Below, in pieces: positions 1 to 8,900 of a DNA stretch of 64,000 nucleotides. Where the stretch lies: positions 68,014,001-68,078,000 of the forward strand of contig NC_092353.1 of NCBI RefSeq assembly GCF_963676685.1, written 5' to 3'. Both the position numbers and the translations under genes were made by a program. The notes under the pieces are model-generated. The model was not told where the DNA came from. It did not search any database and saw nothing but the letters and a program-made list of their open reading frames with translations. Every line of letters starts with the position of its first letter. Within the stretch, counting starts at the first letter, position 1. Source of the stretch: Mytilus edulis (Eukaryota).

Positions 1-86
1 ATTTAGTGGACAACAAACTCCTGTTTTGACACATCAAGTAATGAATGAGCAAGATAAATAAAATAACATGTTTATAATTTTTGCAG

Positions 87-1700
87 GGTGGAACGTTGCC
101 TCCAGTATTGTATATTCAAGCGGACAACTGCTGGCGGGAAAACAAAAATAAATATGTTTTATCGTTTTGCGAGTTACTGGTGCACATGAAAGTATTTCAA
201 GAGGTAGACATTTGATATCTTATAGCCCACAGTAATCATACTACTGTTAGATAATAGAATTCGTATCTAAAAAAATTCAGGGAATACAATCATGACAATG
301 GACACACGTATTTTTATGCCCCACCTACGATAGTAGAGGGGCATTATGTTTTCTGGTCTGTGCGTCCGTTCGTCCGTTCGTCTGTTCGTCCGTCCGTTCG
401 TCCGTCCCAGTGTTCGTCCGTCTGTCCCGCTTCAGGTTAAAGTTTTTGGTCAAGGTAGTTTTTGATGAAGTTGAAGTCCAATCAACTTCAAACTTAGTAC
501 ACATGTTCCCTATGATATAATCTTTCTAATTTTAATGCCAAATTAGAGTTTTTATCCCAATGTCACGGTCCACTGAACATAGAAAATGAAAGTGCGAGTG
601 GGGCATTCGTGTACTGAGGACACATTCTTGTTCCTACTGAATTGATCGGTGATTCCTCCTACCATTGTTATAAGGGTCGTATCATTATGTATTAACATGA
701 ATAACTGTATCCAAATGAACATGATGAATAAGATATAATAAAGAGAGAAAATATACCGACGGAGAATCATAATGAAAAGTCGATTAAAATAAATCATCTC
801 AATATTCAACAGTAAAACAACTAAGACAAACCATTACATAAAAATATAAAGTAACTCCAATACCACCGGAAAACTCGGTTAACAGCTCCTCGAGGGACAC
901 CCGTCGTATTTTTAGACTAACTGAATTCATGATATGGAACACCGTCCCTGAAATAATGTATCAAGTGTAATATATAAATACTCCACATACATCCACTATC
1001 ATGACTGTCGCAATATTGCTTCAGAGAAATGTCAAAACAATTAGCAAAAGAATGCACATACAAGAATCGTAATGCGGACAGTTTTAAAATATAAATCAAT
1101 ATATAATTTGATAGAATTTTTTATGAAAATATTTTTTTTTGCAGGTTCACCTTTCTTTTCTGTCTGTTGGACACACACATGAGGATATTGACGCCGGTTT
1201 TCAGCAAAATAGTAGATTCCCTCCGTCGAAATGACGCAGAAAAAATCCCTGAGCTTTTGGATCTCTTACCAAATCCAAGCAACTTAATTTGGCAATACGA
1301 TATTAGGAACTGGCTTCAACCATTTATTGCTGATGTACGGAAACATATCAAGCCATTACATTATAGATTTACAATGGATGAAGTATCTAATAAGATTAAA
1401 CTGTGTTACAAATCCAATCATGTGGGGCCTTGGAAGATTTCAACAAGTGGAATGTTCATGTTTAACGATAAAGGTGAAGTAGAATTGCCAAAGGGTGTAC
1501 CAAAAGTATCCACGCCAGTTTTTGACAAAATATTTATCGAAAAAATTGAAAGTGGAATTAATGACTGGAAATGTCTCTTCACGGATCAAATGTCAAACGC
1601 GTTGTCTTTGCTTGCTAATATCACTGAGAAAACTAAATATTTATCTTCTTTTCAAATTAAATATTTTTCATTTGAGCAAAACATCTGGACGTTTTATTAG
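87..1700 (+). pseudogene. DUF7869-family / Sola1-like DDD transposase-related gene fragment, spliced and frameshifted
   Basis: Exon 87-203 (ttgcag|...|gtagac) reads GGTLPPVLYIQADNCWRENKNKYVLSFCELLVHMKVFQE. Exon from 1145 (gcag|) reads VHLSFLSVGHTHEDIDAG, then an extra T at about 1198-1201 shifts into FSKIVDSLRRNDAE...YDIRNWLQP...PLHYRF. The DNCxxxNKN and GHTHEDID motifs are typical of this family. Confidence 0.75.
311..632 (+). mobile_element. Non-autonomous Helentron/DINE-1-like element (HINE), family A
   Basis: Subterminal inverted repeats ATGCCCC...GGGGCAT, a (GTCC/GTTC)n microsatellite, a 3' hairpin GTGTACTGAGGACAC and T-rich ends; other copies at 25757, 33216 and 48867. Confidence 0.8.
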
Positions 1701-2197
1701 CAAACTCAACTCGAAATCGGTAATTGACTACTTTATAATATTTATTTGTTTTTCTTTAATCATCAACTAACAACATTTAAGGTCGAAATCAATCGTTTTT
1801 TTATTTATTTTCAGGAAATACGAAGAACATGACAACTAGACGCACCATATATAGCTCATATGTATATGGCTATATATGTCAAAAGAAACAGATATTTTAT
1901 TCTATAATACAGGAACTAATAGAACTCATTTTCTTTTTTTATTTGATTTGTTATATACATGAGGTATCATATTTGTTGTGGCTATTTTACCTAGCAGTTG
2001 AACAACATATGGTTTCAACAGCAACAGAACAATTATGTTTTATTCAAAATAATGTGCATGCTTTAATATGTAATTTTCAAGAGTTTAAATTTTCTACTTG
2101 TGCTGTACTGACATTACACAGTTTGTAATTATGTTTTCTCTTGAAAAAACATTGATTTCTATCTCGTTTACTTTCCTTTAATTTGATGGATACACGA

Positions 2198-2347
2198 ATA
2201 CGTGGTAGCGTGATCACCTCGAGCGCGAGAGGTCGTAGTTTGGAACCCAGCTGGATGAAAACGGAGACTTTAGAATTTGTATTTGTTGCTTCTCCGCTTA
2301 GCACGCAGCATGAAGGAGTTTGATCAAATGATTGATTGGCTCGAAGT
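2198..2347 (+). mobile_element. tRNA-derived SINE 5' part (Meta-domain type), truncated by the duplication junction
   Basis: tRNA-like head GGTAGCGTGATCACCTCGAG...GGTCGTAGTTTGGAACCC, then GACTTTAGAATTTGTATTTGTTGCTTCTCCGCTTAGCACGCAGCAT. Confidence 0.65.
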
Positions 2348-2892
2348 TTTTCTGTATGTTGGACACACACATGAGGATATTGACGCCGGTTTTCAGCAAA
2401 ATAGTAGATTCCCTCCGTCGAAATGACGCAGAAAAAATCCCTGAGCTTTTGGATCTCTTACCAAATCCAAGCAACTTAATTTGGCAATACGATATTAGGA
2501 ACTGGCTTCAACCATTTATTGCTGATGTACGGAAACATATCAAGCCATTACATTATAGATTTACAATGGATGGAGTATCTAATAAGATTAAACTGTGTTA
2601 CAAATCCAATCATGTGGGGCCTTGGAAGATTTCAACAAGTGGAATGTTCATGTTTAACGATAAAGGTGAAGTAGAATTGCCAAAGGGTGTACCAAAAGTA
2701 TCCACGCCAGTTTTTGACAAAATATTTATCGAAAAAATTGAAAGTGGAATTAATGACTGGAAATGTCTCTTCACGGATCAAATGTCAAACGCGTTGTCTT
2801 TGCTTGCTAATATCACTGAGAAAACTAAATATTTATCTTCTTTTCAAATTAAATATTTTTCATTTGAGCAAAACATCTGGACGTTTTATTAG
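2348..2892 (+). pseudogene. Duplicated copy of the DUF7869-like exon, lacking its splice acceptor and sharing the frameshift
   Basis: Near-identical to 1156-1700 at offset 1192; the ttttgcag acceptor is not included. Confidence 0.75.
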
Positions 2893-3389
2893 CAAACTCA
2901 ACTCGAAATCGGTAATTGACTACTTTATAATATTTATTTGTTTTTCTTTAATCATCAACTAACAACATTTAAGGTCGAAATCAATCGTTTTTTTATTTAT
3001 TTTCAGGAAATACGAAGAACATGACAACTAGACGCACCATATATAGCTCATATGTATATGGCTATATATGTCAAAAGAAACAGATATTTTATTCTATAAT
3101 ACAGGAACTAATAGAACTCATTTTCTTTTTTTATTTGATTTGTTATATACATGAGGTATCATATTTGTTGTGGCTATTTTACCTAGCAGTTGAACAACAT
3201 ATGGTTTCAACAGCAACAGAACAATTATGTTTTATTCAAAATAATGTGCATGCTTTAATATGTAATTTTCAAGAGTTTAAATTTTCTACTTGTGCTGTAC
3301 TGACATTACACAGTTTGTAATTATGTTTTCTCTTGAAAAAACATTGATTTCTATCTCGTTTACTTTCCTTTAATTTGATGGATACACGA

Positions 3390-3920
3390 ATACGTGGTAG
3401 CGTGATCACCTCGAGCGCGAGAGGTCGTAGTTTGGAACCCAGCTGGATGAAAACGGAGACTTTAGAATTTGTATTTGTTGCTTCTCCGCTTAGCACGCAG
3501 CATGAAGGAGTTTGATCAAAGGATTGATTGGCTCGAAGTGATAATGCTATGTCCGTTTCGGTGGACTGTTATCTTATGAACAACGTGACGGTTGTCACAT
3601 GTGAAGCAGTATTTTCTTCCCTTTCGGAGTTGCCGAGATCACCCCAAGCTTTTGGTGGGATGCGTGTTGCTTGTAGGTTTTTATTTCTTTGACGTTTCTT
3701 CCTCACTATTGTTTGTCTTTTCTTTTGTAGCCATGGCGTTAGTTTACTTTCGATTTATGAGTTTGAATGTCCCTCTGGTATCTTTTACTCCTCCTTTATG
3801 AATTAGCTTGTTGAAAATCCGACTCTGCGTGTGGTTCAAGTGAAAAGTAAAGTTATTTTTCATGTTACATTAACTTGTTCTTGTCCTGAATATGCATATT
3901 TATTTCCCACTGGACAGTGC
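3390..3920 (+). mobile_element. tRNA-derived SINE (Meta-domain type) interrupted by an insertion at 3581-3795
   Basis: Same head as 2198; the body resumes after 3802 (TTAGCTTGTTGAAAATCCGACT...AACTTGTTCTTGTCCTGAATATG). Confidence 0.6.
3581..3795 (+). mobile_element. Penelope-like element 3' fragment
   Basis: Homologous to 39286-39656 (reverse strand) and 16935-17250; ends GGTATCTTTTACTCCTCCTT; flanked by TTATGAA on both sides. Confidence 0.6.
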
Positions 3921-4246
3921 GAATCACCAAGATTCATCTTTTATTTCGTATTTGAATGTTTCAAAGTCATTTAAAGTCTTGCACATGTACATTAGTTAGT
4001 GTTAATTATGACCTTCAAATCTAAGGCCCGCTATCTAACTTTGCAAAAAGAATTTAAAGCAGTATTTTCATTAGCTTGACTTGTTTGCAATATAAAAAAA
4101 AATCAGTCGAAAAGTGCATTGAGAATCACACTGCTTTTCCAAGCTTCACCTGATAAATGTTCGTCATTTTTATATTCAAGATTGACATTTTTAGACGGAA
4201 AGTAAATCTTTGCAAAATGCTGTAGAAATGGATAAATACACATAAT

Positions 4247-4648
4247 GGGGACATTTCCCCATTCCATGTATATTTTTTATTTCTTCGACATAGAAAATGA
4301 CCAATTACACAGCTTGTTTTAAAGATTATTTTCATGTGGGGAAATTTCCCCAATATTGTTAAGTGTTCACGTATGTGTTGTCTTCCTGTATGGATGTTTT
4401 CCCACTACTTGTAATTTAATGGGGAAATTTCCCCATTTCGTATTCTTTTATCACCATATTGAAAGTCATATTTAATTTGGGGATATTTCCCCACTTTATT
4501 CATGATGTTAATTACAGTTACTTACACATACTTCTCAAACTTATAATTATATTTGAAGAAAAGTGGGGATATTTCCCCAGTCTGAAGGTCTTTTTTCTGG
4601 GGATATTTCCCCAGTCTAAAGGTCATTTTATTCCGGGGATATTTCCCC
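4247..4648. promoter_or_regulatory. Cluster of seven palindromic GGGGA(A/T/C)ATTTCCCC motifs (kappaB-like, or transposon subterminal repeats)
   Basis: Copies start at 4247, 4338, 4421, 4479, 4565, 4599 and 4635. The sequence is certain; the function is inferred. Confidence 0.5.
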
Positions 4649-5690
4649 ATTTTCATTTATTTTTAAATTCATTATGATAATAGATGAGGAAAAATTTCAA
4701 TGAGTTTCATCATTCTTTGTTGCTGCATGGATATAAAGTTAACATCAGGTGTAATTCTGGATAAATTTTCACTAATTTTTAGCAACGGAATCGCCTCGCT
4801 TCTTCAAATAAAGATGTTTTTTACAATAAACGTTGACAATCTTTTTGTTTACCGAATTTGAAACCACACTAAAAAGAGAATAAAATAGATTTTCTCTTTT
4901 TCAAATAGAACGCGTTACATATGTTTCCATATTGGTCAGTCGTCAGAAAAAATGTTTAGATGAATGATTTTTTCAGGACAAGAGGGTATTACCTATACTG
5001 AGATATAGAATACAAAAATATAATATAAGTATGCAAGTTACGATCCAATACTCGATTAATGAACAATTTGCCTTTACTTGTTTTACCTTGCAACAAAAAT
5101 GCGGTGATAGTTTCATAAAGATAAATAGATACAGGCAATTAATTAAGACTAATAGATTATTTTAAATTGACAAGGATAATTTAACGGCAAACCTTTTGAT
5201 AATCATAATATAAGCGAATCAAAATTTAAAAAATACCAACACCAGTGTTAAGTTTGTAGTGAATCGATAAACCTTATAAAATCTAGTCCATGGACTGTAG
5301 AATGTTACGATTTACCAAATCATCAACTTTAGAAATTTAAATGGAATTTCTGGTGTGACATTATCAAAGGTTTTTCAATCATTTTTTTTCAATCTGAATA
5401 ATGCGTTGGAATTTTGAGGGAACCGGTTACAGATAATTTAATTTGTTTTAGAGAAAGTGTTCATCATGAACAAATTATTTTTACTATGATACGTCCGGGT
5501 CTAGGACAGGCTTATAAAAATATGAACAAAGGAAATAAATAACACCTTTACCATACTTAAACAGCACATAAACTTAATATCACATTAAAGTATGATAATA
5601 CATAGCAATCCAAAGCTTTCTTTTTTTTATAATTCGTCATTTGATATTTGAAATATCATTTTCAAGAATTGTTCTTCTTGGTATTAAAAG

Positions 5691-5956
5691 GTACATGGTG
5701 GCACTACATCAGCAGACATATTTAGACAAGTCAAGAAAGCCGAAGATATTGCGAGAAAAAATGCTGAAATTATACGAGAGCACAAAAATCTGCATACCTT
5801 TAAACATATGGATACTGTGCTATTCTTTGATGAGGCTAATACCACTGAAGCTATAGGTGCTATAAAGGAAATTATGTGCGATAAGACTTTAAAAGGGCGA
5901 CAAATTGAAATACATCAAAGACTTAAAATTGTTGCAGCATGCAATCCATACCGAAA
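5691..5956 (+). CDS. RNF213: RNF213-like exon 1 in window (AAA+, Walker B LFFDE)
   Basis: aag|VHGGTTSADIF...FFDEANTTEAIGAIKEIMCD...AACNPYR|gtaagt. Confidence 0.93.
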
Positions 5957-8900
5957 GTAAGTATTCAATATTGAAGTTAATTGTATTTTTCTTTAAGACA
6001 TTTTCGTTTGTTTCATATATGTTGTCATATTTGTGTGTGTTGGCTGCAAAGGTCATTACTGGAAGTAATATAAATGATTACTCACATACTGTTCCTGTTA
6101 AGATACATCATAAGTGTCAACACGAAACTAACTAGTATGCATATAGTTGATATTAGTAAAATATGTATTACTTGAAAACATTTGTTTTATAGTTGTTTAG
6201 ACATGAGAATATTTATTTATGAAATTTATTTCATAAGGTGGTAAATCGTTTGAAAACGCCATTAAATAAATGAGATGTATTGATATAATGGAAACACAAC
6301 AAAGCAACTTAATTCTGCGTCAGTTTAAAGTCATTATAACTAAATTAGTCTTATAAAGCAACAGTTTATTTTTTAACATCTAAGAATTAAAATGATTGAG
6401 TTTCATGTACACGCATTTGTCAATTATGTAAATGCACCGTTTTAGGACAATAATAACATAACAATTATCATTACTTTTTCCAAAATTGTGTTTTTGAATT
6501 TTAGACATTCCGATGAGTTAATAAAAAGATTAGAACAAGCAGGCCTCGGTTATCACGTGGATGCTGACAATACAAGTGACACATTAGGTAAAAGACTAAT
6601 TGAGAGACATTAAAGGATATGTAGTAGCCATGACTGGCAGATAAGACATATATTAACATGATTATTACCTCAAAACCGATCTCTATCTGAAAAAATATAT
6701 TAATAAAAAAAAAAATAGATGTGTCATAACATCTCGGATAGATAGTTCACTTCAACAGCACGAAAATAAATACAAAGGAAAGTACGAGTTTCTCTCTCAT
6801 TGGTAAATTATACTTAGAGTATTTTCTAATTGGAAAAATGATGATTTACATTTAAGCATCAACAGTGTTGTGAAGTACGTTTCCTTGGTAATATTATACA
6901 GCATAATTTATATGATAAGTGTTGTTTGACATTAGAAGGTACTCAAGTTAAAAAAGTAACAAATGCAAGTATGTTAAATAAAACAAAATATCATTTTAAT
7001 TTCACCAAAATTGAAAAATATTTTGTCTAATATATAATTTAAAGGACGAGTTCCAATGCGACGCTTAGTATACAGGGTTCAGCCATTACCACAGAGTATG
7101 CTTCCTCTCGTTTGGGACTTCGGACAGTTGAATATAGTGGTAGAGGAATTGTACATCAGGCAAATGGTTATTAGGAAAGTAAGCAAGGCTATGAGTAGTA
7201 TTGTTATCATATAAATATATTTTACCAAGTTCTATTTTAATCGCTAGTGTTCCTTGCAAAACCTTAATATGAATCACTCAGTACCAAAGTGTGAATCAAA
7301 TTAATGAGCACGATTGAATGCTTCGATTTTGTAAGAGTTTTCAACTATGCACTTGAGGATGACATTCATGCATGAAGCATATTTGTTCTAATAAATATAC
7401 CTACCAGACAACTCAAACTATACATGTCATGAGAAAAAAATCCGGACTTTTAAAACGTTTCATTTATGTCATCAAATTAAACAAATTGTTAACGTTATTT
7501 TAAAAAGGATTGTTAATTATGTAAATTTATCGTGTGATTATTCAAATAAGAAAAGTATGTTAATGAAGCTGAATACCTTATTTCAGATGAATGATCGTCA
7601 GATTCCTCGCTTGACAGACCTTGATCGAGTGATTAGTAAAATTTTAACAGTATCGCAAGAATTCATGAGACAACAAGAGGTAGCTGCATTTCATATTTGC
7701 CTTAGAGAAGTGGTAGAAATGATAAAAAAAAATTAACTTGAAAGCATGAAGTCAGATTAGATGTTTCATTGTCACATTTTTTATTTGTCTATTGAAAATT
7801 TTAACACTTCAAGTAACAATATTTCTACTTAAAATTACGTTGTACACACTTTCTTTGGATGTCCAAATTCCGTTTGGAAATTATACATTTAGTGTGTAAA
7901 AAAGTTCTTTTGGTGTATTTGCATTGCATGTATGAAAATTGATTTGACTAAATAGAGATGTGAAACATTTAACCAAGATTGAATGAAGAATTGAAGAATT
8001 GATGTTGAACCAATGTTTGCTATACTTATTTTTTCCATTTACACAATTCATTATTGCTGTCAATATGGACTTCATTTAATGTCAGAACGAATTTGGAATT
8101 ATAGTTCTAAAATATAATCTAATCTGGTACATCATTGGATTGCTGAAAAATTCTCTATATAAGCTCAAATATTTCTTGACTGAATAAAGGAAACACAGCT
8201 TACCACACAGCCGATACACGAATAGGTGTTTTTACTTCTTCCGTTGGCCTGTTACTATATTCTTTGACTGTCCAATCTCCACCATTTTCACGTGAAAATT
8301 CACAGAGATTGATTTTTTTTTATATCCAGTCAATTTTAAAAAGAATATAATTAAAAGATAACACAAAAAAAACAATGATTCAGCATGCTTTACACTCTAA
8401 TCCGATCATATTTGTTTTTATTTTAGGATAACAGAATTTGTCACACCATTTTGTTTTCATTTAAAACCGTTCGTTCTTTATATCTTGCCGGTATTTCAAT
8501 CTGAATTACGAAACTGCTGACCAAACGAATTTTTTATTGGATAACTAGCTTAACAATGTGTGCAGATTATAACATTTACTTCTGCACACATCAATTTTTG
8601 ATGGACTATTAATAATCCTCCTAAATGGTATGGTTTAATCTAGAATATACGATCATAAAATTGTTTGGAAAAAGTTAAAATATACGATCATAAATTTGTT
8701 TGGAAAAAGTTTGAAAATGGTACAGTTGCTCATTTGAAAATATATAATTTATTACAAATTATACATAGAAATTTCCCAGAATCGTTTATTCATAACTTGG
8801 TTGGGGAGAACAATGAAAAATTAACAGTAGAGGAGGACATGATGTACAAACTATATGCACGAATAACATGTTTATGTTTATTATTATTTTCGTTTTCAAA

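What the first reader, a model, noticed from the sequence alone, without database searches (positions are those of the whole stretch)
4247..4648. Seven 14-bp kappaB-like palindromes in 400 bp, 1 kb upstream of an RNF213-like exon
Seen: GGGGACATTTCCCC once, GGGGAAATTTCCCC twice and GGGGATATTTCCCC four times, mostly extended to TGGGG...CCCCA. Spacers are largely unrelated and AT-rich, so the motif is conserved rather than a tandem unit. Known: these resemble high-affinity Rel/NF-kB sites, and vertebrate RNF213 is an inducible cell-autonomous immunity gene. Inference: this is either a homotypic NF-kB enhancer or internal promoter, or the subterminal transposase-binding array of the adjacent DUF7869 element. 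Both could hold if a transposon donated an immune enhancer.
Basis: partly seen in the sequence, partly recalled or inferred. Interest (0 to 1): 0.7.

Follow-up and report, generated by a model that had tools for sequence, protein, structure and literature searches.

The report
Palindrome array of giant mussel transposon
The seven NF-kB-like palindromes are not part of an RNF213 promoter: they lie just inside one end of a 24-kb jumping gene that landed in an RNF213 intron, are mirrored at its other end, and are likely docking sites for a transposon-encoded protein predicted to fold like the bacterial DNA clamp ParB.

Summary
The enhancer reading fails. The array lies 268-670 bp inside the right end (4916) of a 23.9-kb DNA transposon with terminal inverted repeats, a 4-bp target duplication and a mirror array at its left end. 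The genome holds about 20 copies; 15 of 16 paired copies have 4-bp duplications. The element interrupts a mid-gene RNF213 intron, and 3 of 4 DNA runs from other animals show the empty site. Four sister DUF7869 families carry their own, different palindromes at both ends, so kB-likeness is one variant among several. Sisters B, C and D encode a ParB-fold protein; this family keeps only its outer exons and a broken transposase. Likely function: docking sites for that protein, supplied in trans. Two more distant families have arrays but no detectable ParB gene, so the transposase remains a strong rival. The design is published for algae (PMC12477816; bioRxiv 2025.02.11.637652), and this scan noted it before in other families of this genome and in other animals.

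The parts
4247..4648 (.). Right-end subterminal array: seven 14-bp (mostly 16-bp TGGGG..CCCCA) palindromic sites, 268-670 bp inside the element end
   Evidence: mirror array of 6 sites 150-560 bp inside the left end (G000:C10, L022:1163-1574)
4851..4916 (.). Right terminal inverted repeat (about 66 bp, ends ..AACGCGTT); partner at the left end begins AACGCATT at G000:C10:67995014 (window position -18986)
4917..4920 (+). 4-bp target site duplication ACAT (second copy at L022:1010-1013)
   Evidence: single copy in the empty allele of runs X11, X12, X14
1..4916 (+). Right-hand 4.9 kb of a 23,903-bp non-autonomous Sola1-like DNA transposon (family A); it continues about 19 kb upstream of the window, where the Tudor-like and N-terminal exon remnants of a ParB-like gene lie on the minus strand (about -16900 to -13250)
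87..203 (+). Transposase exon (DUF7869 positions 55-92, YIQADNC..NKN motif)
   Evidence: E 7.9e-19
1145..1700 (+). Transposase catalytic exon (GHTHEDID motif), with a frameshift just after the motif that 14 of 15 distinct copies share
1156..3539 (+). 1192-bp tandem duplication (1156-2347 / 2348-3539), seen only in this copy among those compared
5691..5956 (+). Internal exon of the host RNF213-like gene; it splices in phase 0 to the exon ending at L022:347 across the element (..MILMK | VHGGTT..)

Best explanation
The array is the right-end subterminal repeat cluster of a recently inserted 23.9-kb non-autonomous Sola1-like DNA transposon in an RNF213-like intron, and its palindromes are likely binding sites for the element's own ParB-like accessory protein, which would have to be supplied in trans. 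Shown: position, mirror array, terminal repeats, target duplication, copy number, empty allele, family-specific palindromes, and the accessory gene intact in three sister families and as remnants in this one. Predicted: the ParB fold. Inferred: a dimer of the ParB-like protein recognises the family's palindrome, as bacterial ParB does parS. It would load at both ends and help bring together or protect ends that are 20-40 kb apart, while the transposase binds the terminal repeat proper and cuts. The kB resemblance is most likely a coincidence of this one family's site. Confidence in the structural part alone is about 0.97; the number below is for the whole statement including the binder.
For: Element: homology to the other copies stops at 4916-4917. 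There are 20 right ends at 93-100% identity and 18 left ends at 92-100%; 15 of 16 pairs have a 4-bp duplication. Arrays at both ends: 4-8 sites in 18 of 18 left ends and 6-7 in 19 of 20 right ends (the 20th shows 5), with none in the 20.5-kb middle. Genome-wide, 271 of 292 exact strand matches lie in element-end loci held here (258 family A, 13 in two related 14-kb elements); the reversed-pattern control gives 7. Family specificity: in 6 elements of 5 families, each has 6-13 left and 4-13 right sites of its own palindrome; the only cross-family hits at the ends are one C-type site at each end of D. Accessory gene: an opposite-strand exon is hit by a profile in B, C and D. Its AlphaFold model has pLDDT 95. 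Every Foldseek row shown at E<=0.001 (14 of 16 such matches listed) is ParB, Noc, KorB or Spo0J. VIA Z 9.4/9.0/8.8 to PadC, pNOB8 ParB and KorB. A homologue matches ParB_N+HTH_ParB clusters at TM 0.60-0.64 over more than 200 residues. Remnant outer exons are present in family A and family E. Precedent: inverted-repeat arrays lie beside ParB-domain PAG3 genes in red-algal transposons of another superfamily (bioRxiv 10.1101/2025.02.11.637652, passages).
Against: No binding was tested. Two more distant DUF7869 elements (G, 20.5 kb; H, about 15 kb; one copy each) have palindrome arrays at both ends but no detectable ParB-like gene, although their arrays are tightly phased (about 21 and 28 bp), unlike A-E. 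The ParB core is absent from all 14 family-A and both family-E sequences examined, and no intact family-A partner was found in this assembly. A 3.7-kb family-E derivative has a 4-bp duplication but an array at one end only, and two family-B ends have 0 and 1 sites. Among 19 aligned right ends, sites vary as much as spacers (10 of 98 vs 69 of 519 columns), so selection on the sites is not shown within this young family. The helical half of the model matches ParB DNA-binding domains only weakly on its own (Z 4.3-4.5 to SopB, level with unrelated rows).
Confidence: 0.55

Rival explanations
1. Same element and same arrays, but the palindromes are subterminal binding sites of the DUF7869 transposase itself (as for En/Spm TnpA or hAT subterminal repeats; recalled), and the ParB-like gene does something else.
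For: Arrays occur at both ends of all 7 intron-containing DUF7869 families whose ends were located, including G and H where no ParB-like gene is detectable. The transposase has a long N-terminal region with Cys-rich stretches that could bind DNA (P0161). Site and transposase diverge together (29-65% identity among A-E).
Against: A conserved terminal repeat (AA..AAAARRRGAAAA) is already shared by A-E as a transposase site. Nine loci fetched for compact DUF7869 hits (GHTK-type) show neither arrays nor ParB within 5 kb (weak control, different clade, ends not mapped). In red algae the arrays accompany the ParB gene in an EnSpm-type element.
Confidence: 0.33
2. The arrays are transposon ends but, in family A, host Rel/NF-kB also binds them, so that copies act as portable immune-responsive enhancers (including for this RNF213 paralogue), or Rel replaces the lost accessory protein.
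For: 2 of the 7 sites, and most left-end sites, contain GGAAATTTCC, the kB-33 DNA used in NF-kB crystal structures (PMC9991059, passage). Transposons are known donors of RELA sites in mammals (PMC12212084, abstract). About 260 exact strand matches are spread by this family.
Against: 0 matches to GGGRNWYYCC or to the broadened GGGNNNNNCC consensus. Sister families use unrelated palindromes in the same position. The insertion is absent in 3 of 4 runs from other animals and lies about 58 kb into the gene.
Confidence: 0.09
3. A host-evolved homotypic NF-kB enhancer or internal promoter of RNF213, unrelated to transposition.
For: Only the motif resemblance and the neighbouring gene.
Against: Twenty near-identical copies at element ends on many contigs, a mirror array, a target duplication and an empty allele.
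Confidence: 0.01

Closest known systems
Sola1-1_Ec32 of the brown alga Ectocarpus (PMC12477816; abstract, passages and supplementary table rows read; figures not seen)
   Same: Giant size (21.5 kb vs 20-40 kb), 4-bp target duplication, similar termini (AACCG..CGGTT vs AACGC..GCGTT), a ParB-domain gene on the strand opposite the transposase, fixed nested insertions, and pseudogenised copies moved in trans.
   Different: The algal protein carries an N4/N6 DNA methyltransferase. The mussel proteins and their animal homologues show a coiled coil and a weak Tudor-like C-terminus instead; 1 of 28 homologues scanned, from an amoebozoan, had a weak methylase hit. The word 'palindrom' does not occur in the paper's main text. 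The mussel TIR is shorter (about 66 vs 282 bp).
Plavaka (EnSpm) giant transposons of the red alga Bostrychia, with PAG3 (bioRxiv 10.1101/2025.02.11.637652; passages read; supplements not available)
   Same: ParB-domain accessory gene with adjacent arrays of inverted repeats, proposed as its binding sites (untested there too).
   Different: Different transposase superfamily; PAG3 has a 2OG-oxygenase domain; the arrays are described as adjacent to PAG3, not symmetric at both termini.
Bacterial ParB/Noc/KorB with parS-type palindromes (PDB 7bnr, 7ol9, 8qa9, 1vz0)
   Same: Predicted fold of the N-terminal domain plus a following helical region; conserved P..R and GGNH..A..N residues at the place of the ParB boxes (box assignment recalled); clustered 14-20-bp palindromes.
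   Different: 8-14% sequence identity; spliced eukaryotic gene on a transposon; nucleotide binding, sliding and DNA recognition untested; no ParA looked for.
kB sites and transposon-derived RELA enhancers (PMC9991059 passages; PMC12212084 abstract)
   Same: G-rich and C-rich arms around an A/T centre; the kB-33 core is present in 2 of 7 sites.
   Different: GGG-N6-CCC spacing, one base longer than the consensus; the location is explained by the element's architecture; no binding data.

Membership tests
Sola1 DNA transposons | 4-bp target site duplication | tested here: met
   15 of 16 paired copies; also families B, C, E (the D copy had none). Feature from the Sola1-1_Ec32 row; general definition recalled from Bao et al. 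2009, which was not held.
Sola1 DNA transposons | Terminal inverted repeats with termini like those of a curated Sola1 (AACCG..CGGTT) | tested here: met
   AACGC..GCGTT here; AAC.. in B, C, E, G; AAG.. in D.
Sola1 DNA transposons | Transposase similar to reference Sola1 transposases (Repbase) | not testable with these tools
   No Repbase proteins are available. The exons are DUF7869, but that profile also hits a compact GHTK-type element, and no paper names DUF7869. Assignment to Sola1 rather than Sola2/3 rests on ends and architecture.
Sola1 DNA transposons | AWWT target preference (recalled) | tested here: inconclusive
   4 of 15 duplications are AWWT; 11 of 15 start with A.
ParB-accessory giant transposons (Sola1-1_Ec32 type) | ParB-like gene opposite the transposase | tested here: met
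   Core exon open in B, C, D; only outer exons in A and E.
ParB-accessory giant transposons (Sola1-1_Ec32 type) | DNA methyltransferase domain fused to ParB | tested here: not met
   No N6_N4_Mtase hit in the animal homologues scanned; weak Tudor-type hits below cut-off instead.
ParB/parS system | ParB fold | tested here: met
   Predicted model, pLDDT 95; Foldseek E 1.9e-5 to ParB; VIA Z 9.4 (rmsd 3.2, 98 aligned) and 9.0 (rmsd 4.3, 205 aligned).
ParB/parS system | Sequence-specific binding of the palindrome and CTP-dependent clamping | not testable with these tools
   Needs EMSA/DAP-seq and nucleotide assays.
NF-kB enhancer | Match to the kB consensus GGGRNWYYCC or GGGNNNNNCC | tested here: not met
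   0 matches on either strand; the non-consensus kB-33 core is present twice.
NF-kB enhancer | Stable, gene-linked element of RNF213 | tested here: not met
   20 dispersed copies; empty allele in 3 of 4 runs of one study.
NF-kB enhancer | Rel binding and inducible activity | not testable with these tools
   No ChIP, ATAC or reporter data; the one raw RNA run had no reads on the array or the RNF213 exons.

The most novel reading that the evidence does not exclude
Animal giant Sola1-like transposons use a bacterial-style site-and-clamp system: each family has its own parS-like palindrome and a matching ParB-Tudor protein that loads at both ends to bridge termini 20-40 kb apart. The five families in this one genome form a natural recognition code. 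Family A's site has drifted onto a kB-33-like word, so its gene-less copies scatter potential Rel sites through the mussel genome.
Probability: 0.35. Interest if true: 0.75.

Novelty: new variant of a known kind. Interest (0 to 1): 0.45.

Why it matters
It removes a false regulatory lead: a striking kB-like cluster in an immune gene is a transposon end that not all animals carry. It also makes an open question testable. ParB-domain accessory genes of algal transposons were proposed to bind their own repeats, without a test. Here, five related families in one animal genome have five different palindromes, and three have an open ParB core exon, so a protein-by-site cross-binding matrix can show whether the accessory protein or the transposase reads the arrays. 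If it is the ParB-like protein, that would suggest how 20-40-kb cut-and-paste elements stay mobile, which bears on large-cargo transposon tools.

Tried and rejected
Helentron/Helitron end (the TT flank and hairpin at the right end suggested it): rejected once the left TIR and 4-bp duplications appeared. Simple tandem repeat: only the last three sites are tandem. Search for an autonomous family-A copy: none found. The N-terminal 586 residues of the family-B transposase match none of 14 family-A sequences, and the C11 hits are decayed fragments without ends or arrays. The genome searches score only the best candidates and the assembly may be incomplete. Conservation of sites over spacers among copies: no difference; the copies are too young for the test. 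RNA: one raw run (about 6% read) gave no reads over 4068-7800, which is uninformative; the contig from the run labelled RNA ends in a different flank and may be DNA. Run X13 gave no contig at the left junction. Pfam and PDB sequence searches of the ParB-like exon found nothing convincing; the fold came only from structure. The Atlas feature search gave no named ParB hit. Bao et al. 2009 and Yuan and Wessler 2011 were not held, so general Sola definitions are recalled. Literature searches that found no description of ParB-bearing Sola elements or these arrays in animals: (open-access library only). No complex prediction was run.

Full report
Observation. The seven sites are present at the stated coordinates and nowhere else in the window with up to one mismatch; 100 shuffles gave a mean of 0.01. 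Spacers are unrelated except the last two. Protein names returned by the tools place the DNA in Mytilus.

The array is a transposon end. The 451-bp region has 20 full-length matches at 93-100% identity (itself included) on many contigs, plus one partial match. Homology to those copies ends at window 4916-4917. Following it upstream gives a left end at G000:C10:67995014, so this copy is 23,903 bp. The two ends are about 66-bp inverted repeats (AACGC..GCGTT) flanked by ACAT. Of 16 left/right pairs, 15 have a perfect 4-bp duplication; spans are 9.3-40.3 kb, mostly 20-29 kb. Every one of 18 left ends has 4-8 copies of the same palindrome 150-680 bp inside, with spacers unrelated to those of the right end. 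Of 20 right ends, 19 have 6-7 sites (the script mis-anchored the 20th, which shows 5). Genome-wide the exact motif has 292 strand matches against 7 for the reversed control. Of these, 271 lie in end loci that I hold: 258 in family A and 13 in two 14-kb elements on C3 with related ends. I did not locate the other 21, apart from two isolated sites on C5.

Relation to RNF213. The exon at 5691 is RNF213-like but internal. Exons of the same gene extend about 58 kb upstream. The exon before the element ends ..MILMK, and the exon after begins VHGGTT in phase 0, the junction seen in 6 of 8 homologues checked. Without the element the intron would be about 1.44 kb. Contigs from 3 of 4 DNA runs of one study join the left flank directly to the right flank with a single ACAT; the fourth gave no contig. 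Those runs carry a different organism code from some other holders, so the site may differ between species rather than within one. Either way the array is not a fixed part of the gene.

kB-likeness. The sites are GGG-N6-CCC and match neither GGGRNWYYCC nor the broadened GGGNNNNNCC (consensus from PMC9991059, passages). Two of seven contain GGAAATTTCC, the kB-33 DNA of NF-kB structures, so Rel binding in vitro is plausible but untested.

Sister families. The catalytic exon finds four more families at 30-48% identity. Their ends were located. In 6 elements of 5 families (24-40 kb), each carries its own palindrome at both ends: A GGGGAAATTTCCCC, B TGGTCTnnAGACCA, C CAnAATAAATTTATTnTG, D GGAAGAAATTTCTTCC, E AGAGTATCGATACTCT. 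Counts are 6-13 sites left and 4-13 right, 0-3 in the middle, with almost no cross-matches; the terminal repeats share one design, and 5 of 6 have 4-bp duplications. The motifs were read from these same elements, so the diagonal is partly by construction. The independent points are the recurrence at the second end and the absence from the middle. The kB-like word is thus one member of a series; A, C and D share the AAATTT centre.

Coding content. Family A keeps two DUF7869 exons. A frameshift follows the GHTHEDID motif in 14 of 15 distinct copies, and nothing matches the first 586 of the 861 residues of the family-B transposase in 14 family-A sequences, two of them fetched only in part. Families B, C and D have an opposite-strand gene near the left end. 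Its core exon has 127 relatives; those looked up come from bivalves, abalone, an annelid, amphioxus and one amoebozoan. It folds at pLDDT 95 into a ParB/Noc/KorB/Spo0J-type structure; a homologue gives the same result in the Atlas. Full-length homologues end in a coiled coil and a weak Tudor-like domain, with no methylase in the animal proteins. Family A retains the N-terminal and Tudor-like exons of this gene (E 7e-5 and 9e-6 against this copy) but not the core. Family E shows the same pattern. Family A is therefore non-autonomous yet recently mobile, and its helper was not found in this assembly.

Mechanism. Shown: symmetric, family-specific palindrome arrays inside conserved terminal repeats. 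Inferred: an element-encoded dimeric protein binds them. I favour the ParB-like protein (about 0.55), because ParB-family proteins bind clustered inverted repeats and because such arrays accompany a ParB gene in red-algal elements of another superfamily (bioRxiv 10.1101/2025.02.11.637652, passages). Loading at both ends could help synapsis or protection over 20-40 kb, and the Tudor-like domain could read chromatin; both steps are conjecture. Against this: single copies of two more distant families (G, H) have arrays at both ends but no detectable ParB gene; one short E derivative has an array at only one end, and two B ends have 0 and 1 sites; and sites are no better conserved than spacers among 19 aligned young right ends (L019 was left out). 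Nine loci of compact DUF7869 hits lacked both arrays and ParB within 5 kb, and a further partial element on C13 showed neither; this is a weak control. The transposase as binder stays at about 0.33, an added Rel role at about 0.09.

Comparison with what is known. It works like, and is probably a relative of, Ectocarpus Sola1-1_Ec32: 21.5 kb, AACCG..CGGTT termini, 4-bp duplication, opposite-strand ParB-methylase gene (PMC12477816, passages and supplement rows). It differs in lacking the methylase. Sola1 membership rests on ends and architecture; reference transposases could not be compared, and the founding paper was not held. Curated bivalve Sola1 consensus sequences average 5.4 kb (PMC10294476, passages), so these are much larger. 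My open-access searches found no account of such elements in animals; supplements of the bioRxiv paper and Repbase could hold one. This scan has noted the same design before, in other families of this genome and in other animals and plants. Other papers consulted in passages, with little bearing: PMC4455052, PMC5751038, PMC5199201 and bioRxiv 2021.09.26.461848.

Verdict. The feature is real; the enhancer reading is not supported; it is a subterminal array of a giant non-autonomous Sola1-like transposon. New variant of a known kind, interest 0.45. Its value lies in the five-family site series, which makes the binder directly testable.

Noticed in passing
G000:C3:12969600-12984100 and C3:26834000-26847900 (L218-L221): Two 14-kb elements with related terminal repeats and 6-10 copies of the same GGGGAAATTTCCCC-type palindrome at each end at about 48-bp spacing, with no transposase or ParB remnant found; an older subfamily that kept the motif while the spacers changed.
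   Followed up: partly
G000:C1:64967146-64987652 (L242-L244) and C13:16760240-16775650 (L246-L248): Families G and H: DUF7869 elements with tightly phased palindrome arrays (about 21 and 28 bp period) at both ends and no detectable ParB-like gene; H has a Tudor-looking frame after its transposase exons (L248:1059-1403, no Pfam hit).
   Followed up: partly
G000:C7:4836111-4838686, C12:37458433-37460782, C11:50237845-50241501 (L163-L165): Short (2.3-3.7 kb) family-E derivatives made almost only of ends and arrays; one has a 4-bp duplication but an array at one end only.
   Followed up: partly
G000:C8:82539412-82552639 (L173-L175): The one family-A copy with an in-frame catalytic exon; it still lacks the upstream transposase exons, and its right end was not found in the stretch fetched.
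   Followed up: partly
G000:C11 at about 6.81, 23.19, 25.21, 26.12, 29.27 and 34.19 Mb (L127, L128, L198-L204, L224-L232): Decayed transposase and ParB-like exon fragments of an A/B-related family, all on one contig and without ends or arrays.
   Followed up: partly
window 1156-3539: 1192-bp tandem duplication inside the element, 99% identical, seen only in this copy.
   Followed up: yes
L021:2060-2780 and L021:8340-8680: Nested insertions shared by several family-A copies: an inverted array of 21-bp repeats that reads as a 7-residue repeat frame, and a fragment resembling a Tc1/mariner N-terminus (recalled, not tested).
   Followed up: no
G000:C14:26551103-26598379 (L116, L117, L141): A family-B copy whose right terminal repeat is interrupted about 50 bp from the end and which spans about 47 kb.
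   Followed up: no
proteins P0014, P0131-P0133: A ParB-like/Tudor homologue conserved above 90% in four abalone species, one cluster member each: possibly a domesticated copy.
   Followed up: no
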